A stretch of DNA of 64,000 nt. Source: Lingula anatina. Its lineage: Eukaryota; Animalia; Brachiopoda. Positions within the stretch are counted from its first letter, which is position 1. Each line of letters starts with the position of its first letter. A model generated the notes under the pieces. That model was not told the DNA's origin. It did no database searches and saw nothing but the letters and a program-made list of their open reading frames with translations. This document shows, piece after piece, positions 655 through 63,870 of this stretch. The position numbers and the translations under genes are program-made. The DNA lies in the NCBI GenBank assembly GCA_051362555.1, contig CM120645.1, forward strand, positions 24,022,934 through 24,086,933, in the 5' to 3' direction.

Positions 655-20460
<19,806 letters not shown>

Positions 20461-28900: not shown

Positions 28901-31900
28901 TTTAAATATAAGAAGTAAATAAATAAAAAATCTTTATTTTTTCATTTACTCCTTCTGAAATAAAAAAATACAATAATAAGCTCCACCACTTTGGTATGAT
29001 CAATGTGTAAAGATAAATTTTCACTCACCAAGGGTGGAAGAATAACAAACAAGTTCTTAAGATGCATGTTCTTGGGATCTCGTAATTCTGGGGCAAACAC
29101 ATCCACCAGAAGCTGAAAATTGAGAATAAAAAAAATTGATTCATTTTACTGCAATAACATAACAAGTTTCAATACAAAAAGATAACAAAATTTTACTATA
29201 TAGGATAGCACTAATACACAGATCATATTTGCAAAAGAGGTGTTTGATAAATATGACTTAGTCAGACTTTCATTGATTTGATTTATTTTATAAACTACAG
29301 ATCACTCCCAGAATCTTAGCTGTCAGTACTAACCTTGAAGTATTCTGTTCCTTCTGCAAAATTCTTGGCCATATTTCCAATGACATTGTCCAAATTCCTG
29401 AAATCAAACAGTATTATAAATAGTTACTAAAACAACATAAATCATTTTCTGACACTCACAAATAGAAAGTTTTTTCCAACTGACTTTAACAAAAATTACA
29501 AATGTGTATAAATTAGTGAAACTGTCAGACATGCCATGTGCTGCCCCCTACAGTCCAGTTTAACCTACCCTGCTGCCCTCTGGCATTCTGCAGACAGACC
29601 CTCCTCTTTGCAAAGCTCCTCAAAATTCACAATGTCCTCTAAATCTGGCACAAAGCGGATTGCGTTGCTGCAGCAATGGAGTCCACCAGAACGGATCATA
29701 CGGATGTAACCCATAGCATTACCTGTTGGTCGGAACAGAAATTACAGTAATACCATATAGGAAAAGATAATTGCATGTATCAATATGTACTTGTACAAGA
29801 TGTTAAGAATTAATATCCTCACTTTTTTCTCTCTGGCATCAACCTACCTACTGGTATCTGTTCTACAAGTAGCTTAAACTAATCTAGGTAAGTGCTGACC
29901 TCTGGTGAGTAAAAACCTACCTATCTGTCCCACAAGTAGCCTAAACTGGTCCAGGTAAGTGTTGCCCTCTGGTGTCAGACCAAGTTTGCGGATACCTTTG
30001 TTGAACTTCTCTGCTCTGTCAAATGGATACTAGAAAATAGGAAATAATTTGTCTTCAAATGCAGTGACTGTCATATGTCCTGCCAAGATGTGCCAAATTT
30101 ATTAAACTGAAGTATGTTAAATAAGTAAATGTACTGTAAATAAGTCTTAAAGAATGTTAACAAACTCATTTTTTATTAAATGTTACAATCATTATATATA
30201 CTACATGTATAATCTTGTACAAGATAAACATATTGAACAGCTTATTTATTACGTTAATTTGAAATCCTTCATTGACGACAAATATTTGTATGATGTTGAA
30301 TTCAATATCTTGATGTACATGTACTATATCTTGTCAATGGAAGAGAAGTAAACAAACCTTTTGATCTGTTTGCAGATGATTTTCTCTGAAGAACTTCCAG
30401 TCTTTGATCAGCCTGGATTTGATGTGTTCATCATACATAAACTGGGAGAAGATGAAAAACTTCTTCCTGAGAAACTGATATGTAAAGTTCACCTGAAACA
30501 GAAAATGTTAACACAATGATTTCTTTGTAAAAGTGAAAGGAGAGAACATCCTGCTACCTTTTCAAAATACTTACTTTTAAAGATACATTACCAAAGAGGG
30601 AATTCAATATAAACAATAAAAAGTCCTGGGGAAAAATCAATATCATTAAACATATAACAAATAATCAACATTGTTTTTTGAGAAATAGAACTTATGATAT
30701 CCATTCCCATCTACTAGTACAGCATCTTTTCCCTCTATTTAGCTTGTTTGATTTAATTTTTCATTATTTATGCTTACAGTGGTGTTCATAATGCCTGTGC
30801 CGTGGATACAATATTTTATTATCTATGCTTACAGTGGTGTTCATAATGCCCGTGCCGTGGGTACAATATTTTATTATCTATGCTTACAGTGGTGTTCATA
30901 ATGCCCGTGCCGTGGGTACGAATGGAGTTGGCAATATGGCGGATATTGATAGTGTTCAGGTGCTTATTATTGCTGGACCTCTCTACGAAAATCTGAAGAA
31001 AAAATAGGATAAAATCATCAAATTCTTTTTCTCTTTGTTAGATCACCAAATTAAAACTCTCTATTAGAAAGGTACACATTTAATTTGATTCCTAGAATTG
31101 TGAAAGTTTTCAGAGTTACTCAGACTTGAGCCTAGGTTTGAAAAAATAAACTCTGAACATGGGACCCAACCCAGATTTTATTGCAGATCTTGACGAATCT
31201 CAGGAAACATCAAAATTGAATTTTAAAAAATGCTGCAATCTGAGTTTCCATGGAAAAAACTCGTGTCTGGGTACTCTCAGTGACTTTCACAGATCTGCCA
31301 AGTCAGGTCAATCACCTCACAGTTTCTGGAGAACATTTAACATTTAACAAACTGCAACAAAACCATGTCATCAGGCAAACTTGCCTGTCTGACCTTCACC
31401 ACTTCCATGATGACACTACCATAGCATGACAGGGCTTATACAACTTCTAAATAATGACATTAAAACTTGACTTTTAAGGTAATGACCTTAAAGCAAAGAC
31501 CTTTTAATTCATGATTTCATGAGCTGTGGTTTCACAAAACGCCAACAAAACTTGAATTCAATAAACATGACCTTTAAATGTAACCGACTTTATAGATAGT
31601 TCAAATTCTAACCAAACAAATTGTTCTTTTTTCTTAACACACGTCAAAAAATAAAAAATAAATAAATAGATAAATAAATAAATAAATAAAAATAAATAGA
31701 TAAATAAATATAAATAAAAATAACATAAAAGTAAATCAAATGTCACTCTGGCAACCCAATCCTGCCTTACCTGGTTGTTTAAGTTGTAGAGAAATTTGGA
31801 TACAAAAACATGGATGTTCCTCATAATTTCCAGGACATCCAAGCCCTGAAATTGGAAACACCATAAACAATAGACATGTGCCAGATTAAGTCTATTACAG

Positions 31901-34900
31901 AAGATTTACAATGTGTTCTTAGCATACACAAAGGTATAAGATCCTATTAGCTAGAATATGTGAAAGTAGCTGAAAACGTATCACATATCTCAAGTCTTAA
32001 CGTATTAAAAGACAGCCCAAAACAAGGGCCAAAAACAGCAAAACAGGACTGCCACTCAAGTTCAAATGAAAACAGAAAACTGGACACAGAAATTAACTCT
32101 ATCAGCTGTTCTTTGTCAGTCAGGTAACATTCCCCCTCCTACCTGTTCTAGAGTTTGACTTGGTAGGTGCGGCTCTACCATCCTCAACTTGTATTTCTGT
32201 GTGGCCAGGTTCTTCATCTCCCCGTATGTCTTCCAGTCGTGGAGGGCCACGGTGGTCAGGTTGTAGAAGGTGCGGTCAAGGTAGTGTTCAACATGGGCTG
32301 GGGGGGGGGGGGGGGGAGGGGGAAGAAATAAGAAAATATTATAGCAAAAATTCATATTATCAAGGCTAAAGATATGAAATATGTTATATAATAAGGGTAA
32401 GGTTAAGCACTAGATTTTTTTCAAAGGTGAAAATTGTAAATTCTAAATATACTGTACAGCATTTGCCAAAGTCATAGACTCTTTAAATTATTACATTCTA
32501 ATAAATATGTGGTGGTAACAACATTGAAAAGCAGGCTACCTTTAAGTTATATTCTACACAGTATAAGCATGATATATGCTGTATAGAAATATGATTCCAA
32601 AACTAAGAATTTGAAGTATTGATAATTTTTGCCAATTAAAAAGATTGCGAAGTTAGCATATATATGAAATGAATTTGAAAATCTGAAGCAAAGTATTCAT
32701 TTTTGAGCCATTTTGAAGACCAGAAACACAGGGAGCCTCATACTTTCTTCATTGCCTTCTCTCTCCTACCTTTCACATTTATCATCTTGTCAAACAATCT
32801 GATTGGTCGAAGTTGTAAAAATGGCGTCAGGTCTTTCATGCCGACCTTGAATGGATTGCGGTCGTCCAGCTGAAGATGGGAGTGGATGTGGAGGCGGAGG
32901 TCTGTCTCTATCTCAGTACACAGGGGACCCAGGAGGTGCTGCAATCATTGAGAGGAACCCATAAATGTTGGTACCATATTAACAATTTCATTCCTAACTT
33001 ATTCTCTAGGTCTTAATCTCAGTACAGAAAATCAGTTTTGTGCTCAAGGCAAAACTTTGTTTCATATTTCATATCTACAGCATCTAAATTCAGTGAGAAA
33101 TGCTTCACAAATCATTAACCATAACATGAAAACGATCATATATTTTTTAATACACAAAATTAAAGTGCATAGGTAAGTGCACTGGCCCAGTAGGACCAAA
33201 AAGATTATTAACAACATCATCTTTTTTATTCTACTCACATCTTTGAGCTCCCTGTGGACCTCTTTATCAAACTCATCCAGTAATACCTGGGCACTGGTCA
33301 GATGTCTGGCTTGCTTCATCAGCGGGACACTGTCACTTAACGCTCCCATCATATACTGAGATATGGAATCAAAATTAAAACAATGATAAAAGAGAAGATA
33401 TGACTTCAATTTTCTTTACGTTTTTTCCATACGTCTTCTTTCTTCACCTTTTGGATCAATATAAATATCTCTGGAAGGTTTTGAACTTGGGATAGGGGAT
33501 CTTTCACAGTGGCAGTATATTTCAAGAACACTTCAAAAATACTTGGATCCATTTTCACTAAGATATCTAACATTTTAAAGTAACCAACTGGTCCCAGATT
33601 CACTTTCAATACCTTCTTTCAATAACTTCAACTTGATGATGAGATAAAGGTGCTTTCATACAAAGTGACATGGTTTCCACAGGTTTTCAGTGACCTGTCC
33701 CACCACAGTATACTTACATGTAGTCTGTGGGCCTCAGTAGGATTCTCAAACAAGTCATCAAGATATATAGGGAAGACCACCCTGTGCCAGTAGAAAAAAC
33801 TGCAGTCACAGGCCTGGTGCACTCTGAAATACACAGAATTCTACATGTAGAATACAATCTTTGTCAACCTTTTATAATAAAAGTCTTGTACTTTGTCTCT
33901 CTAAATTGTCTCTGAAAAGATTGGTGTATTCAGTCATTAACACAATTTTACTGATTCAGAAATTATGAAAAATTCAGCCAATAACAATAATTAAATTTGT
34001 AATGTGTGCATGTATTCCATTCATAAAAAGATATAAATACATAGATTGTAGCAGACAAAACGTGGCACCCATGCACTTGGATTGCATTTATACTCTGCCT
34101 CGTGTCCTGTCTGAGGTAATACAATCAACTTTCCCATTTGACATACAACATATTAAAAGTAACATGGAACTGTCACTTCATAAAGTGATCTTTACAGAAA
34201 TGCTATTAACAGAGTGGACACTGCTGTGAGTACAAGTGTAGAATATCAGAGACAGAAGTCTTATGGACCCCCACTCACTTCTCTCTCAGGTCACATATAG
34301 CGTCCAGTTTCTTTAGCGTCGAATACAGACTGGCCAGCTCATCATCACGGAAACTTTTCTGAAAATAAGAAGTTCACATAATGCTATTCAAAGAGATAAA
34401 TGATCTTTAACAGATTATCTACTGTCATAAGTCAGCTTGCTATGTGTATGAGGTAAGGCATGAGTTAATTACAGAAATATTTTCCAAGACATACTTCACA
34501 TACACACTTAATTGTCTGAATTACCAATATTATAACATTTATCCATTATTTAGATATCACTATAAGTATTATAATAAATATTATCATATATAATATCATT
34601 ATAACTCCTGGTAACATACCATCCTTGCTCCCACAGCCAGAGCCAGGTAAGTGATCAGTCTTCTCTCCTTGGTTCCTGGTCCATTGAGAGCATTCTCCCC
34701 CAACACCAGAGCAGACAGAATGTCCAGCTTGGACTCACTATATTTACGGTCTGATATCATCTTTTTCTGAAAACACAGAGATATCAAACTGAATCAGGTA
34801 CTTCCTATTAGTTTAAACTTTAATATTTATCAAAACAAGTCCAGATAATTATCAAATAATTCAAACCATTCTACTACAAAACTGAAACAATTTCAAAAAT

Positions 34901-37900
34901 AAATCAGATACTTCCTCAGTTACACATTTATGTTAAACTAATCAAAATAAATTAAAGAAATACCTACACAAAAATATTTAATTTGGATGCTTATTGTATG
35001 TTTAAACAATGCTATTACAAAAGTGGAACACATAAAACATAAACAATAATTCAGAAAGAAAAATAAAACAATAACCAGCAATATCAAACAGTCCCATTCC
35101 AAATGAATGTAAGACGCGACCCCTAAAAATAATATTATTAATCAGGGATGAGACCAGTCCTCACTGAAAAGGTAGTATTTACACGATTCACCTGATTTAC
35201 ATGATTCACAAGAATGACCCAAATGACCCTGAAAAAGTCAGAATTCTGACAAAAGTCGGAAAGTCTCATCTGCAATTGATACAAACCTTGGCCACAGCTA
35301 TGAGGTTGAGAGCCTGGAAGGTAAGATGATGTATCACGTGGTTCATGGACTCAGCTACCAACATACTAATATTATTAAAACTAACCTTGGCCACAGCTAT
35401 GAGGTTAAGAGCCTGGAAGGTGAGATGTTGTATCACATGGTTCATGGACTCAGCTACCAGCATACTCTTCCTGTGAAACGTGTGCTCTATGGCCTACAGG
35501 AAAATAGAAGACAGCAAGATGGTGATTTTCACTTACACACTTATATGCTTTTCAAAGGGAGGGGGGAACAAATGAGAATACTGTATACATATTGCAATAA
35601 CTGCTGCATCTTTTTCATATAATTCTGCCTCACACAGCACTTGTCTTACCCGGTATAAAACATTTTAGTTCTATCAGATCACAGTCAATAAAAACCCCTC
35701 TAAACATTAACTTCCACCTACTGGTAGCATTGATGCAGTGTAGTTGTTACTGTTGTTTTTGTTGCTATTACTGTTGCTGTTACTGTTACTGTCAGTGCTG
35801 CTGCCAGCGTATTTCTTCCTTACCTTGAGCAGTTCTACCAGTCTACACAGACTGAGTACCGAGGTCTTGGTCATAGGTTTACTGAGGGCCACATGAAGGT
35901 TCATCACCGTCCTCACCAGGTGGCTGATATTGTGGGCGTATAACACTCCCTGCAAATAACACTGACATCTACACAAAGTAAAACATATTTATCATATTAT
36001 GAAGCTATACAGGGAGAAAAAATTTTAAGGAATTTTTAGCTATATGCCAAACTCAGGCATGCTCTTCTGATACATTAATACACCACACCTAGAGATGTTA
36101 CGTGACTGTGGCAAAAGAAGCTTTATTCAGTTTTAGGGGTGTTTTTTTGGTGAAATGCCAGCACTTTCTCTTGGTATGTATGTCAAATAATACACTGGCA
36201 TCCTCTCTCGAGACCTTGAAAACCTCTCTGACACTCAAGTTGTTCTGGTACATAACATTCAGTTGACAGTGCATTATCTCATTCAAACAGCAGGGGTGGA
36301 TGGAAGCCATCTTCCGGGTATTCTGGAAGACAGTCTGAATTCTTCCAAGTTTACCTTGATGGGAATATAATTTTTTCTGTCAGAAATTGATCAAAAATGG
36401 AGAATGGATGATTTGAAAGACTGTCTGTCAGAAAATCTCTGGAACTGTACCTGCATACCTGAATGAAGAGACTACTCCTCTGATTGAGGTCCTCCATTAA
36501 AGAGCTGGCTTTCTCCAAGTAAGACTCCATCTGTACCATCCAGGCACTGACCTGAACATCAAACGCATGCACGTCTCTGGAAGAACACAAATTATTATAT
36601 ATATTTCTCTTCAGGATTGCAAAAAAAAAAAAAAAAATCACAAATATTTCTTTAAAGGAAAACAAAATATCTTTTTTATATGGTTTGTTGTTTATTTGGT
36701 TCAAAAATCAAGGCTATGTATTTTTTTGTTAATATTAAACACAGTATTTTTTGGTTGAAAGATGTCAGTCAGTACCAAGGTTTCAGAAAAAAAACTGAAC
36801 AAAGAACATTAAGATGAGAAAATGCAGATTACTTCAGATAGATAATTAATTCTTCACATTTTTAAACTAGGAAATGCTTAAATCAATAAGTTAAATCAAA
36901 AACTAATTTAAATTTATTTCAGCCAAGGATATCAATGTACCAGTTGGAGCTTAGTGTTGTTTACTTACCTCTGTAAGTTCTGTGACTTCTGCTGTAGCCA
37001 GGCCTGTCTATGTGATGGTACTGCCTGCTGTACCTTCCTATCCAGAGCTCTGGCCATGTGGGGTAACTTCTGGGTCAGGAAATCATTGGAATACCACACA
37101 ACATTACCTACCAGAGACACTGCAGGGACCTTGAGAAAGATTCGAAATAAGATTTAAAATTCATACCACGGCTATATGGGGAAATTTATGTATGAATTAA
37201 TTGCTATATCTTTTCATGTTGCAAACCAAAGAAATCTACTCAAAATGAATAATATAGCTTTTAGTGGATAACAATGATATATTTTACCCCCAAACAAAAT
37301 CAATATTATTTCCTAGAAAATGATTTTATTCTTCTAAATCAATACAAACATAGACAAATACTGATAGCCATGAATGACAAACCTTTTTATAGACATCCCA
37401 CATTTGCTTGAAGACTTTCTTATCAATGACCCTGAAGATCTGGAAGTGGAGAACATAGAGCCCACAGACACCCACAAACTTCAGTCTCTGGTCAGTCTCT
37501 GAAGTCTCGCCTGGAAGAAGACGACAGAATGAAACATTTGTAGTAAAAACAACAGTGAATTCACAATTTTTGAATTGAGTAAGTTCTCATATTCAGGGAC
37601 AACTTTGTACATTACCTAGGCCAGGTACTGATTGATTTAGGCAGGTTGTGATGGGTAAACCTAGCATATAAGGTTCCACTTGGTTCAGGTAGGTTCTGAC
37701 ATTGACAGTAAACCTAGCATATTACCTAGTCTAGGTTCCACTTGGTTCAGGTAGGTTCTGACAATGACAGTAAACCTAGCATATTACCTAGTCTAGGTTC
37801 CACTTGGTTCAGGTAGGTTCTGACATTGACAGTAAACCTAGCATATTACCTAGTCTAGGTTCCACTTGGTTCAGGTAGGTTCTGACATTGACAGTTAACC

Positions 37901-40900
37901 TAGCAAATAACCTAGTCTAGGTTCCACTTGGTTCAGGTATGTTCTGACATTGACAGTAAACCTAGCATATTACCTAGTCTAGGTTCCACTTGGTTCAGGT
38001 AGGTTCTGACATTGACAGCAAACCTAGCATATTACCTAGTCTAGGTTTCACTTGGTTCAGGTAGGTTCTGACATTGACGGTAAACCTAGCATATTACCTA
38101 GTCTAGTTTCCACTTGGTTCAAGTAGGTTCTGACATTGACAGTAAACCTAGCATATTACCTAGTCTAGGTTCCACTTGGCTCAGGTAGGTTCTAACATTG
38201 AGGGCAAACTCCTCAGCAAACATGCCATTCTTGGACACCTGCACAGTCCTGTCATCAAACTGCTGCTCCACACAGTTCTGCAATCAGTCAGTTATGTGGG
38301 TTATTACACTGTTCAAAGCTGCTTACTTTGTGCCTAATTGCAAATGTGTTATATGATTTAGGCATGGAGTTATTAAATAGATGCAGTTAAAATATTGTAA
38401 TGAGTTTGGGCAGATTTTTATAATTGTCTCAGAAAAAATTTGTAAATTAAAGAGGATTATAATGATTATCTCCAAAATACACAAAAAAAAAGGTTTCAGC
38501 GAGATACCTTTTACACTTTCTTTACCTGGAAGATCATCCCATCTAACAGCTGTCCTTCCAGCCTCATCAGCAGCTTCTCAAATGGCCGCAGCTTGTCATC
38601 TGTGAACCCAAACTTGGTAGGGTTATGGTGGACTGACTTCAACATCCTTCATATTAATATATACAAATATTACAACAGAAATAGCATGAATAAAAACCAT
38701 CTAACATGACCATATCAACAAGCATAGTCAGACACAGGATAGTAACACTCTTTGTAGAACATATCAGCTTCTACTTCAAAAAGTGAAAAACATTATTTCT
38801 CAATGATTACTACTTTATTTCTTTTTATGAAAAATGCTAAACCATGGTTGAAAAGATAAAAGTGGATATCACATCTCAATATAATTGGCTGTACAGACTT
38901 CAATATAAACTGAGCCAGTATGAGATACCTTTTGTACAAAGTCCAGTGTTCCTTCAGTGTCTCGTGGCTCTCCACTATCTCATCCAGAGTAACAAGGACA
39001 GACAGGAGGTCCCCCAGGTGTTCATACACAATCTGGAGGATAGAACAGATTCTGAAGGTCATCATAGGGTCATCTGAAGGTAATAGGGTCATCTGAAGGT
39101 CATCAGAACAGCGGACTAACAGATCCAGGGGTCAAATATGGCAAGTCACTACAAAGCTTGCCGCTTAATTCCCGATTAGGCATTGAATAGATTCCCAACA
39201 GGGATTACGCAACGAGCATTCAAGTGGGTCGGCCAAATTTGACACGCAGATCTGTTAGTCCTTTGTTTCGAATGCGCTCAAAAATAATGTATATTTAGGA
39301 AATGTTAGTCTGTGCATTTATTTCTCATGTAAATCCAAAGAAAAGAGGTAAGAGGATGGCAATATAGATCGAAGGACTAAGAAACTGTCCTTGAGACATT
39401 TTTTATTAACATTTAAAATGTTCAAATAAACAAGAGTAGAGTGGTAGCTGCACCCCATAGGTCAATATATTAAGGCCATCATCTAACTGATATGAACTGT
39501 CACCACTCACCTGAAGGTGTACCTCTGTAACATCAATAACCTTGGGTCCAGATCTGAAATAACAAGATTAGGATAAAATTAACAACCATATATATTTCAC
39601 CAGCCATAAATCATTTACAAAATGTACTCTCATTCCACCTTGTTTTTTTTCTTGATATTTTATTTTATAGTGGTCATAGCTCATAATTGTCACAACTGTA
39701 TTTTATTTGGATATATTACTGGGTTTTCATCTATCAATGACTGCACTGAATGAGTCTTTGTTCATTATTTCTGTGTCTGTCTACAAGAAAGGATACTGGT
39801 CAGACAATTAACAGAATTCAATCCAACAGCTATTGACCAATAAGAAACTAAACTGATCATGGTCTTACTGTTACCTGACATGAATGAAAACTTAACAGAC
39901 TCCGATGAAATCAGTGATTTCTCCGTTATTCAAACCCATCAAAGTCCAGTTCACACTGACCTGTTATACCAGTATACACTGACCTGTTACACCAGTTCAC
40001 ACTGACCTGTTACACCAGTTCACACTGACCTGTTATACCAGTTCACACTGACCTGTTACACCAGTTCACACTGACCTGTTACACCAGTTCACACTGACCT
40101 GTTATACAGTGACGACAGCTGCTGAATGACACTCCTCACAACTTCATAACTACGATTCACAAAACAAGATAATTCCTGAAATCAAAAAGCAAACACCTTT
40201 ATATCTGTCTTGGTTATTTTCTCTGGATGAAAACGATGACCTTTTTTAGGACCACATTCAGCACAGCAATAAGCTGTAACACAAGGGGTGATGGCTGGTC
40301 TGAAAGTAACACAGACTTTTTAACTTTTAAGACACAATGCAACCTGGCATCTGTTGACATAAGTCATGGCCACTTCTGGTTAAAATATACTTAACATACC
40401 TTCCCTGCAAGAAAAGTAATTTTCCTCACCTGTATCAAAGGTAACATTCTTCCCATTTGTATCTGCACCTCTCCTTCATCAAGACCAGTTTCTGGCTCTA
40501 TAAAAAGTTATACATAAATATAATTCAACCGAAATTGAAAATGCATTATTCTATAAAGAATTGTATTTTGCCTTATCATTTGTATTTTTCTGTCAATTGC
40601 TTCTTTATTTGTAATACTACTACAAAGTGTTAATTCAATTTTCATTGCAATAATCTGACTGTAACCAGAATAACCCATACAATAAGAACTTTGCTTGTTA
40701 TGACATAAGTAAAAGTATGTGTGAAACATACAGCATTCTCATTCTTCATTTCATGATAAAAGTTGCCAGATTAAAATCTCTCATATCTCATTCTTTAAAC
40801 AGATAAAAACTGTTCCCACATGTCCACCTTACCTCCCTCTCCATAGAACATCAGCGCATTATAGAACTTGGTCTCTGCCTCGTACTTCAGATGTCTCATC

Positions 40901-41996
40901 TCATTGCACAGCGCGGCAAACACTGTGATCACCTTGTTCAGCACTTTGTTGTCTGTCTTGATAAGCTGTAGGAGGGACGTCTGCTCATAGGGAAGGAACT
41001 AGAACAAAAATCATAGGAATATTGGCTTATGTTTCACAACACATTCACTGGTCTCAAATTCAAAATAATGTCTTCATATGGAAGGAACTAGACCAAAAAT
41101 CAAAGGAAAATTGTCTTTCTCTCAAAACTCACTGGAGATAGCCTTAATATGTGTGCAAACATGTTGGTGCTGCAACAGCAGGATTTGTTTGGTAAAACAG
41201 TTATCAAAGTAGACATGTAGTGACTATTAAAATCACAGTCTTATAATTTCTACCCTACCACCGTTTGTGAACTGCACCTATAGTGATAGGGGGTCCAGGG
41301 TCATATCCCAGGCATACCCCATCCCTACCACCTGTCTGTGCCTGTTACCTGTAATGATATGGGGTCCGTGGCATACCCCCCACCCCCCATCTGCCAGCTA
41401 TACCTGTAGTGATATGGGATCCAGGGTCATATCCCAGGCATCTCCTATGGAGTCATCCAAGGCGTCCTCGATCTCCTTCAGCTGAGTAGCATACTCTTCC
41501 AGAAACTTGCCATACTTCTTCAGTTGAACCTCTCCAACAATTCCTAACAACAAATTGACAAGAGTCAACAGAAGTATTCAAAGTTATCTACAGGAAGACC
41601 TATATAATAAATCCCTTCTTTCACCACAATATAAAATGTTTCATATGGAACGTTTCATAGTGGAATTAGGTTCCAGTATTTAGTTGAAATGAGTACCTGT
41701 ATTAGGTCATAAGCAACGCGGCCTCTACAGAACAAATCCGCAGATATTCGCATTGAATGTAAACATAAATACAGAACCTTCACTTTTCCACATTTCCTGT
41801 CTTCTCCTGTGCCCGAAGTTTCCTTCCATATTATTCATATCGATTTGTCTGTTTACAAAGCTGCATAAGCTCACTTATAATATCGAAGTGCCTAGTATAC
41901 ATAGCAAGGGATATATATTATTTTCACGATAAACTTACGTAAAGATCCATCATCAAATTTGTCAAACTTCCAATCGTCGTCTGTGGACGTCGCCAT
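22978..41996 (-). CDS. WASHC4: WASH complex subunit 4 (SWIP/KIAA1033), 33 coding exons, about 1199 aa
   Basis: Exons: 41939-41996, 41404-41543, 40833-40998, 40430-40497, 40099-40175, 39511-39553, 38929-39032, 38526-38646, 38160-38277, 37383-37510, 36969-37129, 36459-36576, 35824-35949, 35386-35493, 34620-34766, 34279-34358, 33718-33823, 33239-33355, 32770-32938, 32143-32297, 31771-31845, 30888-30992, 30358-30492, 29921-30029, 29569-29722, 29334-29397, 29029-29112, 28627-28723, 28291-28385, 27885-27986, 26111-26216, 25841-25903, 22978-23078 (3600 nt, phases consistent). Recognised motifs include [72 protein letters not shown] and [14 protein letters not shown]. The last two exons are less certain. 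Confidence 0.97.
23484..23703 (-). mobile_element. MITE family A, copy 2
   Basis: Reverse complement of 11175-11389, located in the last WASHC4 intron. Confidence 0.85.
25105..25335. repeat. Direct tandem duplication of about 120 bp
   Basis: gtgaaagttacaaaacagcaaataaaaccaggaaaaatg occurs at about 25129 and about 25249. Confidence 0.8.
29841..29975 (-). repeat. Decayed duplicate of WASHC4 exon 24 3' end and donor
   Basis: About 29841-29907 aligns to about 29914-29975. Confidence 0.8.
30759..30919 (-). repeat. 55-bp x3 repeat spanning the WASHC4 exon 22 donor
   Basis: ACCACT|GTAAGC junction at 30888, 30833 and 30778. Confidence 0.92.
35281..35467 (-). repeat. 99-bp-period duplicate of WASHC4 exon 14 3' end and donor
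   Basis: 81-nt copy at 35287-35367 ending in AAG|GTTTGT. Confidence 0.92.
36291..36453 (+). mobile_element. MITE family B, diverged copy abutting the WASHC4 exon 12 donor
   Basis: caggggtgga...ttctggaagac...ttttttctgtc...caaaaat...gactgtc...gaaaat aligns with 17825-17991. Confidence 0.65.
37610..38201 (-). repeat. 62-bp minisatellite, about 9 copies plus a degenerate distal copy, spanning the WASHC4 exon 9 donor
   Basis: The unit is the last ~41 nt of the exon plus GTAATATGCTAGGTTTACT; cacttgg recurs every 62 bp from 37677 to 38173. Confidence 0.95.
39105..39269. mobile_element. MITE-like element with inverted arms
   Basis: ggactaacagatc..gtcaaatatggc pairs with gccaaatttgac..gatctgttagtcc. 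Confidence 0.6.
39946..40106 (-). repeat. 23-bp x7 repeat spanning the WASHC4 exon 5 donor
   Basis: Unit ccagttcacactgacctgtta(c/t)a; each copy reads AACAG|GTCAGT on the - strand. Confidence 0.95.
40984..41135 (-). repeat. Decayed duplicate of the WASHC4 exon 3 acceptor
   Basis: ggaaggaactagaccaaaaatcaaaggaa (about 41080) matches ggaaggaactagaacaaaaatcataggaa (40991). Confidence 0.75.
41275..41442 (-). repeat. Two degenerate copies of WASHC4 exon 2 3' end and donor
   Basis: acct(a/g)ta(g/a)tgata..gg.tcc occurs at about 41276, about 41348 and at the real junction at 41402. Confidence 0.8.
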
Positions 41997-42210
41997 CTTG
42001 AATTACTCCCCGTCACGTGATTGGGTTTGAGAGTAACGCACTCAAAAATATTACATTTTCCAGCAGAGCAAAATCAAATCCGGCTTAACAGTAACTTAAA
42101 ATGAAATAAACATAAATTTTTGTCATTTTGATATAATAACCGTTTGTGTTGCTAATGATAAGGGCAGAATGCCACAGAGCACTGACAGAGAATTAAGTCG
42201 GTCATGTGAC
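41990..42210 (-). promoter_or_regulatory. WASHC4 promoter: YY1-like motif over the ATG and two E-box/CLEAR-like sites
   Basis: CAAGATGGCG (41991-42000, - strand), GTCACGTGA (42012-42020) and GTCATGTGAC (42201-42210). Confidence 0.5.
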
Positions 42211-45973: not shown

Positions 45974-45979
45974 TATAAA
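45974..45979 (+). promoter_or_regulatory. Putative TATA box of the homeobox gene
   Basis: TATAAA about 85 bp upstream of ATG 46063, with CCAAT at about 45915 and CACGTG at about 45896. Confidence 0.5.
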
Positions 45980-46062
45980 CTCCGTGCAATTATCAATTTG
46001 GCACTTCATAATTTTATTTCCATTCGATCATCACCTACTAGTGCTATCTCTCTGCTACTGCG

Positions 46063-54684: not shown

Positions 54685-54992
54685 GGCTTTCTGCAGATAA
54701 TTCTGCTTGGCCTTTTTTACAGATTTGTAAATATTTTACTGATTCAGATTCATTGAATTAAATTGCATAATTGATTTTAAATAATAATTTTTCAGCTATA
54801 GATTTAAACCTTGGGAGATTTGATGTAAAAAAGTTTTTACAATGTACCCTTGGGCCTATATATATATATATATCATGCTGGTGCCCCATTCCTACACCAA
54901 GGGCCCAATTATTAATTTTAATTATTTTTGCAGACTTCCCTTGCACCTGCCACAGATGGGCAAACTTTATTAGCTGAGGTACTGGAGACAGA

Positions 54993-55060
54993 ATGGGGTG
55001 TGGATCATCCAAGTCAACCTCCACTCAGGATCAGAGTGGAAAGAGGAAAGTCAATGTAAC

Positions 55061-55108
<48 letters not shown>

Positions 55109-57172
55109 GTAAATTGGAAAATAGCATCTAGATAATATTGTAAAGCTAAGTCATACAGTAAGTAATATTTTACATAAGCAAAATTTATTACTGGACTTTA
55201 CAAGTTATAGTCTGTTTGACAATGAATTATTGGAAGATCATTTAAAGAACAATAATTAAATAAAATGAAGTGAAAAAGAAATTTATCTATATGGTAAGTT
55301 TTAATTCTCAAATATTTAGATTTTTTGTCTTTGGTGCCTTTATTTTTGGTGCCATAAAAGTGAGATCTGAAGATTGAAGTTTTCTGATGGGTTGTTTTGG
55401 GAATGTTTCAAGTTATTTAGAATTTAATTGACATGTTTTATTATTTGAATAGCCACAAGTTTCGTCAAACAAGGCAAATGAGCTGTCCTCTCCGAAAAAG
55501 GAGGTCAAGATTGCTGTGAATACATTCAAACCAGGTGCACACCTCCCAGATGATATCACTAGGAATATTAATGGTAAGCTTTTTTAATTGATTGTGCATT
55601 GTGCATTTTTGATTGTGCATTGTGTGAGCTGGAATAATTTCTTTTTGACACTGGGAAACAAGTATATTATAGATAAAGATAAACTAGGTTGTCTGCATTA
55701 TTTCATAAATTCATAAAGATTACTTACAAATTATATATATTATAATTTTTTTTCAAGAAACCATCATATTTGTCAATCTAAGTAATTTTTTGTTTTTGAA
55801 AAAAAATATAATTATTATTAAATCTTAATTGGTTTTTATATGAAATGTGCCATTAAAGAATTCATTAGTTTATTCTTGATGATCTTAATGAATTTTCACT
55901 TTTCAACTGCAGAATCAAAACCTGTGGTCAAGGGTTTCTCCAAAGCCAAATGGCCGCTACGTTGTTATGCTGCACTGGATTATAACATCAACGCAGGCCA
56001 TGGGGGTGCTGCTGCTGTTCTGCTGATATCTGGTGAATATGGCGGCCCTGGAGCCAACTCCACGGGGGAATTAATCTTCGTACGCTCTGGCTTCGATGCC
56101 AATCATTTTCAGCATCATGTGACCAAAAAAATAAATGGTGGGGGTCATTTTGGTGCAGAGAGCTTCTGCCTGACCAATGAGAAGGGAGATCTCATCACAA
56201 ACAACCTTTTCGGCGCTAATCAGGTTGGACTTTTTTCAAATGATGCAAGGTTTACAAATCTGGGGTTTGGTGTGATCAGAAAAGACGGAGATGCTGACAG
56301 TCCAACAGATCTTGGAGTTGCTGTCAATCAAGCTAATGGTGCCTGCACCACTTTGGTATTGTGTAGTCAGGCTCAGGCTGGTGGCGCCATCTACATGCTG
56401 CAGTCTGGACATAAAGATGATCACCTGAAATCTGGTCTCATCTGTGGTGAGGATAAGTGGAAATTTGATGTGGGTGAGAACGGCAGTATCCAGGTCACAG
56501 GAGAGGCGGAGAGTTGTTATGGAATCTTCCATAACAGAGAGAATGAGGAAGACTTCACGGAGAATCAAGCTGGTTCTTTTCTCACTCAAGCTGTGAATGG
56601 ATCGGAAGACACCCAGTTGATAACCATGCCTGATTCCACAACCCACTGTCAGCTAGTAGTGATGTGCTCTAACAGCAGTGGAAAGGAGGCTGCAACATCA
56701 GCAGCCCTTTATGGTGTCTCACTAGATGGCAGTCCTGAGCCCAAGACACACCTAATCCAAGGCAGCTCTGGGGTTGAAGGGTGTGATGGAAACCTTTGGT
56801 CATTTTCCATCCAGGGGTCATCTTTGATGGCCAAAGGCCCGGCAGGACCATGCAGGTATGCAGTGATTAGTAATTTTCCAGAAACTGTCACTGACCTGAA
56901 GGAGAAATGTCTGCAGAGTTGTTGCCTGGCAACAGGTGAAGAAGAAGTCATGAGAAGTGCAGTTTCTATAACAACAAGTGAGGTCACAGGCTGGGTGAGC
57001 AAGAAGAGTCAGATACTTATCACTTTGGATGAAGATGAAGTTGCACAAATCCGAGCAGATGATTTGGTTGAAGTGGATGGGAAATGGGCATTCCAAAGAA
57101 GATGGGAGGCTGAGGAAATGGATGTCGGGTTGAAGCTGGTTAGAATATATGCAGTTAGGAGTCATGTTAAAG

Positions 57173-57222
<50 letters not shown>

Positions 57223-60200
57223 ATAATTTAACAGATTAATTGAAGGATACATTTTAACTAATTCAACCATTCTAAATTTTGCGTCCCCTGATTTGATTAT
57301 AGATTTATTTTTTTCATTTAAGTCGATCAAGCTGAACACCACATTGAGCTCAGTGGCTCCCCCTGCCAGTTAACAATACAACCAAAGGGTGTGGTTTACG
57401 CTCTGAACTGTGCAGGACCTTCCTACCAGGCCATCAATGACGTCGTCTATGCCTCGGAGTTCTCCCGCTTTGCTAACTTCTCTTATGATTATGTTTTTGG
57501 TAAGTAGGCTGTTTGATCATTGAATCATAGGGCGCATTCCCATAGATTTTAGATCAATCTATCCCCGTGGGGAGTCTCACTAGATTACTGTCAGATAATC
57601 TGGCTTAAATGTCCGTCCCGCGTACTACAAGCTGTAAGGTGGTAATTAACTTTCGTGCCCGCTCGGCTGACAGCTATTTAGCGTGATCCCCCAGGGAGTT
57701 AGGTTGATCTAGTTGGCTTGATCTAATCTCTGGGAATGGGGTCTTAGAGAGCATCAAAGAGATGACATTAATTCCTAGATAGCAGTATAAAGATTTTTAT
57801 ACTAAGATTATGTTAACTGTGCTAATTGTTTATGATTTTTTTGTGTAGTATAATGTGACTTTGTTACCAGTAATGGGAAATTTCAAAAGATTGATACAAA
57901 TGTTATTGAGATTCCCCTCTGAATAAAAGAAAAAAGAGTCCATGTATATTAAATGATATCAGAATATACACTGGGGTAGCGCTAGCAATTTTTTTCGCTA
58001 AGCCATATATCACCACATTTTTGTCAATTTGTCAATTTGAATGGTTATTATTTGGCTAAAACATGTCAAATCAAGCCCTTTTTCTTAAGCCAATTTCAGT
58101 CAGTTTTAGCATTTGGCTAAATTGACGAGTATTAGCGCTACCCCAGATACAGAATGATGCTTGCAGTCCTGCTGTGTGCTGTTTTCCAGGAACGAGATCA
58201 AGAGCTTTGGGCAAAGGTGAGCCAATCACCACTTTCCCTGAGTTGCTGGCGGGAGGACACGACGGGTTTATGTTTGGAACTGTGCGCTTCTCTGGAACAG
58301 AGGCTAAGGATGAAAATCATATTGTTTATGATGTAAGTGGAGTAAATTGTGGAGTGAATTGATGTCTAAATCACAATTGTAACATGAGAAGAATGGCTTT
58401 GAGCATTTAGAAGACAGAAAAACTGTTTGTAAAATAAATATTTGCTACAAATACACCAAAGAAGCAATTAATTCCCTTTTACTTGTGTTGTTGCTAGGTG
58501 CCAGAGATTCCCAGTGGTAACTACACTGTACGTCTTCACTGTCACGCTAAAAGTAAAATTGTGTCCATCAGCGGCAGCAGCCTCAGTGACAAGGTAAGAG
58601 ATTGGTGGATCCCCTGTAATACTGGCTACTGCAGTTACTTGTCAAGTGATTATTAGATTTGATCTCAGACTAGTTTTTGAAAGGAGCCAGTCGGATCAGA
58701 ATAGTGGAAATTTAGCGGTTGCTTTAGACTGTGTTTCCTTTGTCCATAGTGTCCATAGATTTCAGCTTTAGAGCTGAAAATTTTGATTCAGAGTCTGTGT
58801 GACCAGTAGTGAGAAACCTTAAAGAATAATAATACTAATAACACTGAAATGATACTGCAATACTCAAACAAAGAAAGTTCTTTTCAGTTTGCGTCAGAGT
58901 TCAAGAAGAAGAAAGAGGTACTGCCCGGCCTGACTATGCACACACTAGACCTTCCTGTTAAAGTGGACACCTTCAAACTGGACATTGATGATGGATGCCT
59001 GTCAGGGTTTGCAGTGCTAGACAAAACTTACAAGGAGAAGGAAATGAGTGCAGTAGAAAAGGAAGAAGAGAAGGCGGAGAAACAAATGGTAGACCTTAGA
59101 TTATGTAGATTATTTAACCAGTGTGGAAAGTATCCTTAGCTTTTAGCTTTTTTTTTGGTTGTAAGTCAAGTAAGGGTTTAGATAACAAGGGCTAAGACAG
59201 CAATAATGATGATTTGAATTATGCTACAAAATGTACCTATTTAATAACTTGTTGGCACATGTAAAGCATAAGATTAAAAGTTTGTTGTTTCTGCACTATT
59301 GTTATAAAAATGTATAATTTAGATCAGCCACTGCTTAAATTGCACTGTGTTTACAGTTGATTGACACTGTGGAGCCCCTGAGCAGAAGCATGAGTAAGAA
59401 GGTGTTGTCCATCGTAGGCTGGTCTCAGAACTTACTGCAGAATGCCAGCGGAGAGGTACTGGAGGGCTACATTTAATATAACATTTAAAAATGCCTCCTG
59501 ATACTTGGTAAAAGTTGTAATAAAATCTTGAAGTAATTTTTCATAGGAAGAGGTTATGAAGTGATTTTGATATATCATTGTTAAAAATGAAGCAAAATAC
59601 ACCATCTGACATTTATGTAATTGCTGAAGTGCTAATTAAAGCTTGTCAGAATTTGAGGGGTCTTCATTCACTGGTTACACTGATTGTGTATTAAAGGCTA
59701 GAGACCTGTCTCGCTGGAGCCTGGCAGGTCTTAATTCACTGATAATATAATTGCTTATTAAAGGCTGGAGATATGTCTCACTGGCGCCTGGCAGGTCTTA
59801 ATTCACTGATAATATAATTGCTTATTAAAGGCTGGAGATATGTCTCACTGGAACCTGTCAGGTCTTAATTCACTGATAATATAATTGCTTATTAAAGGCT
59901 GGAGATATGTCTCACTGGAGCCTGGCAGGTCTTAATTCACTGATAATATAATTGTTTATTAAAGGCTGGAGATATGTCTCACTGGAGCCTGGCAGGTCTT
60001 AATTCACTGATAATATAATTGTTTATTAAAGGCTGGAGATATGTCTCACTGGAACCTGTCAGGTCTTAATTCCATGATAATATAATTGTTTATTAAAGGC
60101 TGGAGATATGTCTCACTGGAACCTGGCAGGTCTTAATTCACTGATAATATAATTGTTTATTAAAGGCTGGAGATATGTCTCACTGGAACCTGTCAGGTCT

Positions 60201-63200
60201 TAATTCCATGATAATATAATTGTTTATTAAAGGCTGGAGATATGTCTCACTGGAACCTGGCAGGTCTTAATTCACTGATAATATAATTGTTTATTAAAGG
60301 CTGGAGATATGTCTCACTGGAGCCTGGCAGGTCTTTATTCACTGATAATATAATTGTTTATTAAAGGCTGGAGATATGTCTCACTGGAGCCTGGCAGGTC
60401 TTAATTCACTGATAATATAATTGTTTATTAAAGGCTGGAGATATGTCTCACTGGAACCTGAGAGGGCAGTGGAAGGTGATAGATGGAGGCTACGGCACGG
60501 AGAAAGCCTTCGTCACCTCCCACATGGAGTGTACTAAGTACCAGGAAGTGCTGCTTACAGACTACTTCCCTGCAGAATACCTGGATACTGCTCCTGATAT
60601 ACAGGTAACTTAGACTACCTGGACACTGCTCCTGATATACAGGTAACTTAGACTACCTGGACACTGCTCCTGATATACAGGTAACTTAGACTACCTGGAC
60701 ACTGCTCCTGATATACAGGTAACTTAGACTACCTGGACACTGCTCCTGATATACAGGTAACTTAGACTACCTGGACACTGCTCCTGATATACAGGTAACT
60801 TAGACTACCTGGACACTGCTCCTGATATACAGGTAACTTAGACTACCTGGACACTGCTCCTGATATACAGGTAACTTAGACTACCTGGACACTGCTCCTG
60901 ATATACAGGTAACTTAGAGATAGAATACCTGGACACTGCTCCTGATATACAGGTAACTTAGAGATAGAATACCTGGACACTGCTCCTGATATACAGGTAA
61001 CTTAGACTACCTGGACACTGCTCCTGATATACAGGTAACTTAGAGATAGGGACAGCAAGAAAAACAACAACAACAACAACAACATATATTTAACCAAGTC
61101 TTCTTCAGGGAATAACTGCACTGTGTATTCTATTTCTCATTTTATCAATTATTATTTTATTCCTCTAAATATTGGCTTAATTCAAATAAACTAACATCAG
61201 TTAAAGATGGTAGCACCTGTATATATATATGTGTGTGTGTGTGTATAATAAATACAATCAATTATTGGCTGTTTTCAGGTGTCAGAGTGGTACAGAGAGG
61301 GAACAGTTGGTGGAGGACATTATTGTTTGACAGCCTGTCTCATGGATGATGATGGAAATGTAAGTTTACTTTATCTATTAGATCTGCATTAGCACTGCTT
61401 ACATAAATGAATGAACTGAAATAGTTCAAAGTGATATGTACATGTATTATTATAATAATTATAATTATTTGATTATTATAAATTATTATTATATTTGCCC
61501 CACCCACCCCGATGAAAATGTAATTGACATGACTTGTATTTTTTACAATTAAATTGTAGAAAATTGCTGTCATAACCTATATAGACATTGTTATTATTGT
61601 TCATTTTTTAAAAATTTAACCCCCCCTCCCAACACCACCTGATCAAATGTATAACTTATTCAACTTTTGTGGTTGTAGGAGATAGCATCATTTACCACTG
61701 GGAAGACAGACAGGATATACAGGGACTACAAATGGACCGAGGCTGCCACCACATTCACTAACTATGGACCGGGTGTGCGTCGAGTGGGAATCACCTCCAT
61801 GGGTAAAGATGACAAGTACTGGGCGGGGTTCTACGGAGCCATCATATCAGCCGCTGTGATACGCGTGCAGAGAGAGGCTATCGCAGCTGAAAATGACGCC
61901 TATGAGGAAGCCAGCCAGGTGGGGAATGTTGTTATAGTTAAAAAGTTAAAAAGTTTTCATTTGTGATAGATGCACATTAGATTTACCTGTTGACTGTTTC
62001 ACCTGAACAGGTAATTCAGCTGCGGAGTCTGTCAGAGTGAACAGACGAAACTATCAACAACTGAGATCCAGTGAAACTATTTTGAGAGTCATTGCAGTAA
62101 TTTTGAAATGATTCTTGCATATTTTGTTTTAATGAGTATAGAGACAATGTGGCTGTCCACATAGTCCATGTGATATGTCAATTGAAAGCATGTGCATGTA
62201 CGCACACAGGCACACACACATACGATATTATTGTTTTGCAGGTGAAGAAGTTGTCAGAAGCTGGCAAGGATGGCACCATAGAAATATTCCAGCAAAGAGA
62301 AAAGCTGATCAACAAAGTCGTAGCAGACAAACAGGATCTCCTGGCGGATCTCATGGAAGATAATGGTACAAGTTTGTTTTGGTTGATGATAAAGAGCATT
62401 CATCTTATGAATACATGTTAAAGTAGATATCTAGAGTTTGGTTGAATATATAGAAGATTCAGCCTATTAATACATGTTAAAGTACATATTTTGTAAAGTA
62501 AAGGTCCCTTGGTGATAAGAAGGATTTTGCTGTTCTCAAATGCTACAGAAACTGTCAATATTCTGGTGTTACTGGCCAGGTACTCATGTTTTGTGTTACA
62601 AGCAATAATTTGCCTTTATTTGGCCCAGTAATGAGTCACAAATAGTCAAATAAACAAGATTTTTTCGTATAAACATTATTCAGTGGTACCAGAAGTTGAC
62701 AAGTCCTTCCAGAAACAGACAGAGGTCGCCACCTTCAAGCCTCAAGTGGAAAGAAAAAAGAAAAAGAAGAGAGAAATCCGATTCTTTGTCTCCAGCACTT
62801 TCAGAGACTTCAAAATGGAAAGGGAGGAGTTGATTAAGAAAATATTTAGAGAGGTGGGTGAAGTCACTTAAAAAAAATTTACTTACATGTCTTTTTGATT
62901 TTTTTTTACATAGTGCAGTGAATTATAGTTTTGCTAATTACGTTTTCTTAAAAAGAGCAATAACATATACTGGAATTCACATATACTGAGTAATTAAGTC
63001 ATCAAAACCTGAGTACATGTACTCAAAATTACTATGACAAAATCCTTAGCAAATTTGGTTAAAATTAGTAGTCAGAAGACATGTAGTATTTTTTTGCTGG
63101 AACTGTTATGATATTTATTTTTATATATTTCAGATCAACCGGGTCTGTGCTGACAGAGGGGTACAGTTTACCTATGTTATAATATTTATTCTAGTAGAGG

Positions 63201-63870
63201 CTTGTGATATCTATTTCTATACCTGTATATTTCAGATCAACCGTGTCTGCGCTGACAGAGGGGTACAGTTCACCTATGTGGACCTGAGGTGGGGCATCAC
63301 AGAACAACAGTCAGAGACTGGGGAAACCATTGCTATCTGCCTGAATGAGGTAACATGCTAGATGTAGTATTAATCTGTTGATTAAGTTTTACTGACAACT
63401 GCAGAGTCATTGTACAAAATGTGAAGGCTTGTAGCCAGCAATTTGAAATGGGTGGTTCTTTTTCTGAAAAAGTGGACTTTTCACAATGAAACCTTTGCGC
63501 CCTTAGATAAAATTTTAACCAGATGGGACCTTTTCCCGGCAAAAAAGAGGTTCTTTCAAACCCTGCGAACCCTCCCCCCCCCCCCCCCCTTGGGTGTTGA
63601 AAAAATGATCAAAGTTAAACTCATTTCCTTGCAGAAAGAGAAGTAATCCAGTGCCAAATTAATTACACAATTCCTTGTTTTTCTTTCTTCTCCTAGATTG
63701 ACAAGTGTCGTCCCTATTTCATGTGTATGCTGGGAGAGAGGTTTGGGTGGTCACAGAAGGAAGAAAAACCTGACGCTGCTCTGGACAAGAGTTTTGATTA
63801 CGCCATAGAGAAGTACCCTGCTAACATGGCCTGGATCAAAGATTTCAGATTTGACACCAGTGTCACTCAG
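54993..63870 (+). CDS. Large multidomain protein, 5' part (at least 1078 aa): MGCGSSK acylation motif, 3 unknown repeats, Ig-like, malectin-like, FBA lectin, DUF4062; probably continues into NACHT and TPR/WD repeats (TEP1/NPHP3/TTC41-like)
   Basis: Exons 54993-55055, 55453-55573, 55913-57172, 57323-57499, 58190-58332, 58498-58593, 58888-59088, 59357-59455, 60434-60604, 61279-61359, 61679-61918, 62242-62365, 62684-62853, 63236-63349 and 63697-63870 join in one frame. Motifs: VVYALNCAG...YDVPEIPSGNYTVRLH (malectin-like); NLLQNASGE...FVTS...LDTAPDIQVSEWY...TFTNYGPGVR...GKDDKYWAGFYG (FBA); IRFFVSSTFRDFKMERE...VDLRWGI...CLNEIDKCRPYFMCMLGERFGW (DUF4062). Confidence 0.85.
55061..55105. repeat. (ATT)n microsatellite
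   Basis: Seen directly in the sequence. Confidence 0.95.
57530..57743 (+). mobile_element. MITE family A, copy 3
   Basis: Near-identical to 11175-11389. Confidence 0.85.
57971..58146. mobile_element. MITE family D (5-bp TSD)
   Basis: Perfect 14-bp TIR CTGGGGTAGCGCTA/TAGCGCTACCCCAG flanked by ataca/ataca. Confidence 0.85.
59659..60460 (+). repeat. 67-bp x12 minisatellite spanning the acceptor of FBA exon 60434-60604
   Basis: AAG|GCT(G/A)GAGA recurs every 67 bp from 59694 to 60431; the last copy is the real acceptor. Confidence 0.97.
60577..61048 (+). repeat. 38/44-bp x12 minisatellite spanning the donor of the same FBA exon
   Basis: ACAG|GTAACTTAGA at 60601, 60639, 60677, 60715, 60753, 60791, 60829, 60867, 60905, 60949, 60993 and 61031. 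Confidence 0.97.
63120..63279 (+). repeat. 102-bp-period duplicate of a DUF4062 exon acceptor and 5' end
   Basis: tatatttcag|ATCAACCG at 63134 and at 63236. Confidence 0.92.
63424..63590 (-). mobile_element. MITE family C, partial inverted copy
   Basis: Its reverse complement aligns with about 54505-54683 (poly-G, tttttgcc.ggaaaaggt, caaaggtttca, ttgctggctaca.gcct). Confidence 0.7.

What the first reader, a model, noticed from the sequence alone, without database searches (positions are those of the whole stretch)
29841..63279. Recurrent tandem amplification of exon-intron junctions (at least 10 cases in two genes)
Seen: most minisatellites inside WASHC4 and the DUF4062 gene straddle a splice junction, each unit carrying the exon end, the GT or AG, and adjacent intron. 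Cases are the WASHC4 donors of exons 2, 5, 9, 14, 22 and 24, the acceptor of exon 3, both sides of FBA exon 60434-60604, and the acceptor at 63236. Units are unrelated in sequence (23-102 bp, 2-12 copies), and the copy continuous with the ORF is always the exon-proximal one. In the longest arrays the most distal copy is the most diverged. Inference: either a junction-biased mutational process operates (for example repair slippage linked to transcription, splicing or R-loops), or junction copies are selectively retained or homogenised by gene conversion. I cannot confirm whether this has been described for this lineage.
Basis: partly seen in the sequence, partly recalled or inferred. Interest (0 to 1): 0.85.

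Follow-up and report, generated by a model that had tools for sequence, protein, structure and literature searches.

The report
Splice-junction "mirage" repeats that turn over
In this marine invertebrate, short pieces spanning exon borders have been copied head to tail into the neighbouring introns at 10 of about 90 junctions in two genes, and other individuals carry such copies at four further junctions; this repeat type is already known from lancelets and a few human genes and is likely harmless, but here it falls on exon borders far more often than chance would give.

Summary
Confirmed. All ten junction-spanning duplications are present: 7 in WASHC4 and 3 in the FBA/DUF4062 gene. Ten of 14 complex local duplications in the two genes straddle a junction, against 3.2 expected (P=8e-5). 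Across five genes it is 10 of 21 against 2.3 (about 9-fold, interval 3.6-23). The WASHC4 exon 2, 3 and 5 cases are not assembly artefacts: other individuals' DNA holds them, and the 23-bp array has 3 units instead of 7. Other individuals also carry duplications absent from the window at four more junctions (exon 6, 11 and 17 donors, exon 29 acceptor), two joints with 4-6 nt microhomology. RNA reads join exons 2 and 3 at the exon-side sites (11 reads, no decoy joint listed). The exon-6 array appears in RNA and may be mis-spliced. The class is known: amphioxus "mirages" and human F7-type minisatellites. This scan found it before on other DNA (24 notes, at least 10 genomes). What is added is a measured excess plus turnover between individuals. 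The cause of the excess is unresolved. The organism is a lophotrochozoan outside the five molluscs tested.

The parts
22979..41996 (-). WASHC4 coding region, 33 exons, 64 junctions
   Evidence: Homology; open 1199-aa frame; RNA joints for introns 1-4 and intron 19. Exons 32-33 read by eye and by frame only.
41276..41441 (-). Exon 2 donor (41404) with two decayed copies in intron 2; the far copy has CAG>TAG
   Evidence: Spanned by contigs of two other samples; RNA uses 41404 (5+6 reads).
40985..41117 (-). Exon 3 acceptor (40998) with one copy 89 nt upstream
   Evidence: Spanned in X2 and X7; RNA uses 40998.
39946..40107 (-). 23-bp x 7 array at the exon 5 donor (40099): about 9 nt exon plus 14 nt intron
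   Evidence: X7 lacks 4 units (skips 92). The exon 5-6 RNA joint was not listed.
39462..39536 (-). Exon 6 donor (39511): single copy in the window, but tandem units of 71 nt (39462-39532) and 53 nt (39484-39536) in other individuals
   Evidence: go-back joints in X2 DNA with 6- and 4-letter overlap; X7 depth 1426 against 77; RNA reads X14 5+5 and X11 2.
37609..38209 (-). 62-bp x about 9 array plus one degenerate distal copy at the exon 9 donor (38160)
   Evidence: Not tested with reads.
36958..37030 (-). Exon 11 donor (36969): diverged duplication in individual S3, absent from the window
   Evidence: table 5c (X3 37000 to 36958, 26 letters between that resemble the exon).
35284..35466 (-). 99-bp duplication at the exon 14 donor (35386): 81 nt exon plus 18 nt intron
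33705..33783 (-). Exon 17 donor (33718): duplication in individual S1, absent from the window
   Evidence: table 5c (X1 33783 to 33705, 7 letters between).
30755..30919 (-). 55-bp x 3 array at the exon 22 donor (30888)
29841..29974 (-). 67-73-bp decayed duplication at the exon 24 donor (29921); the copy has a stop codon
28319..28417 (-). Exon 29 acceptor (28385): duplication in individual S1, absent from the window
   Evidence: table 5c (X1 28417 to 28319, 13 letters between).
55452..63870 (+). FBA/DUF4062-domain gene, 14 exons inside the window, running past its end
   Evidence: Four bivalve homologs at 37-39% identity carrying PF04300 and PF13271 (family names recalled); exon chain. First exon approximate.
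59659..60460 (+). 67-bp x 12 array at the acceptor 60434: 40 nt intron plus 27 nt exon; all 12 copies keep AG
   Evidence: Not tested with reads.
60574..61049 (+). 38-bp x 12 array (two distal 44-bp units) at the donor 60604; all 12 copies keep GT
   Evidence: Not tested with reads.
63124..63279 (+). 102-bp duplication at the acceptor 63236
   Evidence: Not tested with reads.

Best explanation
These are 'mirage' repeats: short tandem duplications that span an exon border, likely arise there more often than elsewhere in introns by microhomology-guided slippage during DNA repair, and likely persist because splicing keeps using the site next to the intact exon. Shown: the duplications; their excess at junctions; their presence, absence and copy-number change between individuals; 4-6 nt overlap at the two exon-6 joints; use of the exon-side sites at intron 2; stop codons in two copies. 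Inferred: (1) a first 23-110 nt duplication forms by out-of-register re-annealing; (2) unequal exchange or slippage expands and collapses it, making inner units alike and leaving end units behind; (3) extra copies are spliced out and decay neutrally. My preferred but untested reason for the position is that repair from the other allele starts in the conserved exon and slips where it meets the more polymorphic intron.
For: Excess at junctions after exon-only placements are removed from the null: 10 of 14 against 3.24, and 10 of 21 against 2.3; fold about 9-11, intervals 3.6-23 and 3.4-43. A two-fold longer life of junction copies does not remove it (P=0.005 and 0.002). Independent sample: the four visible window-absent duplication loci not tied to a mobile element all straddle junctions (P about 0.004). 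In one search the joint list was complete and both go-back joints were at the exon 6 donor. Overlap of 6 and 4 letters at those joints. Copy-number difference, 7 against 3 units. RNA joint 41404/40998 in 5+6 reads, with no decoy joint listed. GT or AG kept in 43 of 43 copies in five arrays, so decoys are not purged; 15 synonymous against 14 non-synonymous differences fits a neutral copy beside a constrained exon (expected 42%, P=0.19). High polymorphism: an X7 contig has 67 other letters in 1667. First-site use at such arrays is reported for human F7 (PMC1557585, abstract and introduction read).
Against: A four-fold difference in survival or detectability would explain the window counts (P=0.07-0.09). 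The DUF4062 gene alone is not significant. Three other genes (24 junctions) have no case. The window was picked because it shows the pattern. In one search, 40 joints and 14 between-letter rows were hidden, and contigs from divergent introns may fail to lay, which favours junction cases. The exon 17 and exon 29 joints show 7-13 filler letters and no microhomology, and no nearby template was found for the 13-mer. The allele-boundary idea has no direct support: the synonymous share is not above the 42% expectation. At exon 6, array joints occur in RNA about as often as normal joints (X14: 5+5 against 1-7 per junction) while other introns have almost no depth, so harmlessness is not certain there. 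RNA depth is low (31-40 reads laid per run).
Confidence: 0.55

Rival explanations
1. No bias in origin. Duplications arise anywhere; those within exons are purged, intronic ones decay or are deleted faster, and junction ones stay recognisable because one copy is anchored in a constrained exon. Picking a rich window does the rest.
For: Short introns give each event a 4-47% chance of straddling a junction. A four-fold survival advantage fits. Three genes have no case. Window ascertainment.
Against: Anchoring one of two copies should give about two-fold at most (inference), which is rejected at P=0.002-0.005. Four of four visible window-absent loci are at junctions. Lowering the threshold adds only 12-13-point matches: 10 in WASHC4 against 0-4 in shuffles.
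Confidence: 0.27
2. The bias comes from chromatin or transcription: breaks or slippage concentrate at exon edges through nucleosome or methylation boundaries, polymerase pausing or R-loops during co-transcriptional splicing.
For: Both donors (10) and acceptors (4) are hit, in two broadly expressed-looking genes. WASHC4 is transcribed. The mechanisms are from general knowledge, not from a call.
Against: No direct evidence. Fillers do not match the next exon, so repair from spliced RNA is not indicated.
Confidence: 0.12
3. The copies are functional: spare or alternative splice sites that tune transcript level through mis-splicing or intron retention, kept by selection.
For: All 43 array copies keep GT or AG. 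Exon-6 array joints are seen in sense-strand RNA (X14 10, X11 2) with no depth left over for the unique intron beyond the array.
Against: Copies carry stops and non-synonymous changes; most unit lengths break the frame; cases come and go between individuals; intron 2 shows only the exon-side sites. The RNA reads could be retained intron or could come from another locus.
Confidence: 0.05
4. Assembly artefact: junction sequence was duplicated by mis-assembly or allele stitching.
For: The organism is very heterozygous. The 62-, 67- and 38-bp arrays, the 63236 case and the exon 14, 22 and 24 cases were not confirmed in independent reads.
Against: Contigs from two other samples span the exon 2 and 3 duplications and a shorter 23-bp array. 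Copies differ by many substitutions, including stops.
Confidence: 0.02

Closest known systems
Amphioxus 'mirage' minisatellites (Adh3, globins BflGb6 and BflGb9, troponin C, PGBD5). Seen: passages of PMC3087553 section 16 and PMC3902484 section 17. The original Adh3 paper was not held.
   Same: Tandem copies of an exon-intron border at both 5' and 3' ends; unrelated units of tens to about 160 bp; copy number differs between haplotypes; inner units alike with end units left out; normal splicing kept.
   Different: Here a lophotrochozoan, not a cephalochordate. Density is 10 of about 90 junctions in two genes. The excess is measured against a null, and presence/absence at four more junctions is seen between individuals. 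The passages read report single genes and call the origin unclear.
Human minisatellites whose first unit spans a donor: F7 IVS7 (37 bp), CBS IVS13, LMNB2, PDGF intron 4, 6-16. Seen: abstract and introduction of PMC1557585.
   Same: Identical donor pseudo-sites follow the authentic one; length polymorphism; mainly the most upstream site is used, with some use of the next sites in CBS and 6-16.
   Different: Isolated cases at donors in human genes; here many per gene, including acceptor arrays, where first-come scanning cannot explain the choice of the last copy.
Intron gain by tandem duplication and variable internal tandem repeats. Seen: passages of PMC2812944; PMC3265369 search listing only.
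   Same: Tandem duplication that includes splice signals changes gene structure.
   Different: No new intron or exon is shown here; existing junctions are copied into the old intron.

Membership tests
Mirage minisatellites (as described in PMC3087553) | Tandem duplication whose unit spans an exon-intron boundary | tested here: met
   10 cases.
Mirage minisatellites (as described in PMC3087553) | Both 5' and 3' boundaries can be duplicated | tested here: met
   7 donors and 3 acceptors in the window; 3 donors and 1 acceptor in other individuals.
Mirage minisatellites (as described in PMC3087553) | Many copies keep GT or AG | tested here: met
   43 of 43 copies in five arrays (the search pattern fixed the flanking letters).
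Mirage minisatellites (as described in PMC3087553) | Length instability between haplotypes | tested here: met
   23-bp array has 7 units against 3; exon 6 array absent from the window and present in X2 and X7.
Mirage minisatellites (as described in PMC3087553) | Regular splicing is not disturbed | tested here: inconclusive
   Met at the exon 2 donor and exon 3 acceptor (11 reads). Exon 5 joint not listed; exon 6 array joints appear in RNA; the other seven window cases untested or hidden.
Mirage minisatellites (as described in PMC3087553) | Inner units homogenised, end units left out | tested here: met
   62- and 67-bp arrays: inner units differ from the real copy by 0-6 letters, the distal unit by far more. 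Not seen in the 23-bp array.
Mirage minisatellites (as described in PMC3087553) | Somatic instability (reported for Adh3) | not testable with these tools
   Needs single-molecule reads from one individual.
F7-type donor pseudo-site arrays | Pseudo-sites are functional when the authentic site is lost | not testable with these tools
   Needs a minigene test.

The most novel reading that the evidence does not exclude
In this and similar highly polymorphic marine invertebrates, exon borders are a genome-wide hot spot for short tandem duplication, about ten-fold above intron interiors. Roughly one junction in nine carries a copy in any haplotype, different junctions are hit in different individuals, and some arrays leak into RNA. 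That would be a general, unrecognised mutational bias behind the scattered 'mirage' reports, and a standing source of intron growth, splice-site shifts and splicing polymorphism.
Probability: 0.4. Interest if true: 0.7.

Novelty: new member of a known kind. Interest (0 to 1): 0.42.

Why it matters
The repeat type is known, but its origin was called unclear in the amphioxus paper read, and nine literature searches listed no genome-wide test of enrichment at junctions; subscription papers are not covered. This locus gives a measured excess and shows birth, expansion and loss between individuals, so the question of mutation bias versus survival can be tested directly with population long reads. 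Arrays of 12 identical acceptors or donors are also natural tests of splice-site choice, and they can mislead gene annotation and read mapping.

Tried and rejected
No whole genome is held, so no genome-wide test was possible. No RNA holder was listed; the RNA runs laid were added by species label. One search was swamped by a high-copy element at 23484-23700, so most joints were hidden (40 joints and 14 between-letter rows not shown), and the exon 14, 22 and 24 cases got no readable RNA or DNA result. No reads were laid on 37600-39400 or on the DUF4062 gene, so the three long arrays and the 63236 case rest on the window alone. The intronic control was discarded because it included the junction arrays themselves; only its junction scores are used. 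A lower threshold found no further junction copies beyond one 12-letter chance match. The test for copies born from another allele (synonymous excess) was not significant against the proper null (P=0.19), although exon 14 and 63236 show 7 of 8 synonymous differences. One RNA allele inside a duplicated part (30906) did not match the copy's letter. Repair from spliced RNA was rejected because fillers do not match neighbouring exons. Coding use of copies was rejected because of stops. Microsatellites, the 5-bp repeat at 994-1235 and other units under 18 nt were left out of all counts. The Adh3 paper was not held. No supplements were read; those of the amphioxus papers may hold further cases.

Full report
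Setting. No whole genome is held for this window. A WASHC4 tree of 14 proteins places the organism among lophotrochozoans (100/99), outside a clade of five bivalves and gastropods and weakly beside an annelid (85/83). It is highly polymorphic: a 1667-nt contig of another individual has 67 other letters. I modelled WASHC4 (minus strand, 33 exons, 1199 aa, open frame) and 14 exons of an FBA/DUF4062 gene (plus strand) from homologs. RNA reads confirm WASHC4 introns 1-4 and intron 19.

Observation. A self-comparison at all offsets of 12-300 nt (no hits in two shuffles) gives 14 complex duplications with units of 19 nt or more in the two genes, once microsatellites and shorter units are dropped. 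A probe centred on each of 88 junctions finds the same ten, with a clear gap to the rest (39-80 against 22 or less). Units run from 23 to 102 nt and from 2 to 12 copies. The exon-side copy is always the in-frame one. GT or AG is kept in 43 of 43 copies in five arrays. The distal copy is the most diverged in the 62-, 67- and 55-bp arrays but not in the 23-bp array.

More than chance. I collapsed each array to one unit and placed it at random, discarding placements wholly in exons or covering whole exons as purged. Expected 3.24 of 14, observed 10 (P=7.6e-5); WASHC4 7 of 9 (P=2.5e-4); the DUF4062 gene 3 of 5 (P=0.11). Adding the three other genes of the window (24 junctions, no junction case, 7 intronic duplications; one model approximate) gives 10 of 21 against 2.3 (P=1.4e-5) and a fold of 9 (3.6-23). 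If junction copies simply lasted twice as long the excess remains (P=0.002-0.005); at four times it does not (P=0.07-0.09). A lower threshold adds ten 12-13-point matches in WASHC4 against 0-4 in shuffles; a few may be real short intronic copies. The window was chosen for this pattern, so these P values overstate the genome-wide case.

Other individuals. Two stretches were laid with public data. In 39400-42050 (all 7 joints shown), contigs of two samples span the exon 2 and exon 3 duplications, and one has 3 rather than 7 units of the 23-bp array. These cases are therefore real, and one varies in length. The same call shows tandem units of 71 and 53 nt across the exon 6 donor, where the window has a single copy. 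The joints overlap by 6 and 4 letters, and depth there is 660 against about 90 in X2 and 1426 against 77 in X7. In 22300-37600, where a high-copy element hid most rows, three visible go-back joints not tied to a mobile element fall on the exon 29 acceptor, the exon 17 donor (both X1) and the exon 11 donor (X3). So 4 of 4 visible window-absent loci straddle junctions (P about 0.004 under the same null). Two caveats apply: 40 joints and 14 between-letter rows were hidden, and divergent intronic contigs may fail to lay.

RNA. The exon 2-3 joint uses the exon-side donor and acceptor in 5+6 reads, and no decoy joint is listed; the exon 5-6 joint is not listed. Against simple neutrality, the exon-6 array joints occur in sense RNA (X14 5+5 reads, X11 2), as often as normal joints in X14 (1-7 per junction). 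Other X14 introns have almost no depth, and the array reads account for all depth beside the array (118 letters seen, 160 expected). This could be use of distal decoy donors, retention of that intron, or reads from another locus. It is a lead on few reads.

Fate of the copies. Ten copies differ from their real exons at 15 synonymous and 14 non-synonymous sites, two of them creating stops. That is above the 26.5% expected if only the copy changed (P=0.003), and it fits 42% for a neutral copy beside an exon that takes only silent changes (P=0.19; expectations). The copies are not coding.

Mechanism. Shown: position, excess, turnover, microhomology at two joints, unexplained 7-13 nt fillers at two others, exon-side splicing at one intron, neutral-like decay. 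Inferred: a first short duplication by out-of-register re-annealing, growth and collapse by unequal exchange, and tolerance through exon-side site choice, as reported for human F7 (PMC1557585, abstract and introduction). For why exon edges are hit, I prefer repair from the other allele that slips where a conserved exon meets a polymorphic intron, because the known rich cases are in polymorphic marine animals (amphioxus polymorphism recalled). The one test I could make was not significant. Survival and detection bias (0.27) and a chromatin or transcription cause (0.12) remain open; function (0.05) and artefact (0.02) are unlikely.

Known relatives. Amphioxus 'mirages' match in every feature I could test, apart from undisturbed splicing, which is inconclusive (PMC3087553 section 16 passages; PMC3902484 section 17 passage). 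Human F7, CBS, LMNB2, PDGF and 6-16 carry donor-spanning minisatellites (the lead came from scan notes). PMC2812944 (passages) treats variable repeats at exon-intron boundaries in human duplicated genes. The Adh3 paper was not held. This scan has 24 notes with the same key words in at least 10 genomes, including urchins and annelids; these are unchecked AI notes, not support. No note exists for this genome, and none matched polymorphism plus mechanism. Nine literature searches listed no genome-wide enrichment test, within an open-access library.

Verdict. A real, dense example of a known kind. The added value is a measured excess and evidence of birth and loss at different junctions in different individuals, which makes the question of origin testable. 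Interest 0.42; the genome-wide mutational-bias reading has probability 0.4 and would merit 0.7.

Noticed in passing
window 39462-39536: All four runs laid show signs of an array at the exon 6 donor that the window lacks. In X14 RNA its joints are as frequent as normal splice joints: decoy use, retained intron or another locus.
   Followed up: partly
window 23484-23700, 11180-11390, 57529-57745: Three copies of a short inverted-repeat element; very high depth in DNA contigs and many RNA reads on both strands at the first copy. The other two were matched by eye.
   Followed up: no
window 17823-17990, 51580-51750, about 36300-36440: A second short dispersed element with inverted ends, matched by eye; high depth near 36100-36600.
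   Followed up: no
window 39113-39261: Probable third inverted-repeat element in WASHC4 intron 6, seen by eye.
   Followed up: no
window 655-20460, minus strand: Five exons in one open frame of a PDZ/guanylate-kinase/WW gene that looks like MAGI (name recalled). Its long introns hold five tandem duplications, none at a modelled junction, including a 38-bp x 6.4 array at 14173-14415.
   Followed up: partly
window 46063-48500, plus strand: Three-exon gene with a paired-like homeobox (label recalled from the translation) and a long Pro/Ser-rich tail; open frame.
   Followed up: no
window 49263-53290, minus strand: Six-exon gene that looks like a beta-lactamase-family serine hydrolase (label recalled). 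My exon ends did not translate cleanly, so they are approximate.
   Followed up: no
window 55452-63870: The FBA/DUF4062 protein's large N-terminal exon found relatives only in three bivalve species (4 hits among 6546 candidates), although WASHC4 places the organism outside the molluscs tested.
   Followed up: no
window 22979-25903, minus strand: The predicted WASHC4 ends in a Gln-rich exon and a poly-proline exon not seen in seven homologs' C-termini.
   Followed up: no
window 39051-39105 and 62378-62489: Two intronic duplications lie within about 20 nt of a junction without crossing it; both were counted as intronic.
   Followed up: partly
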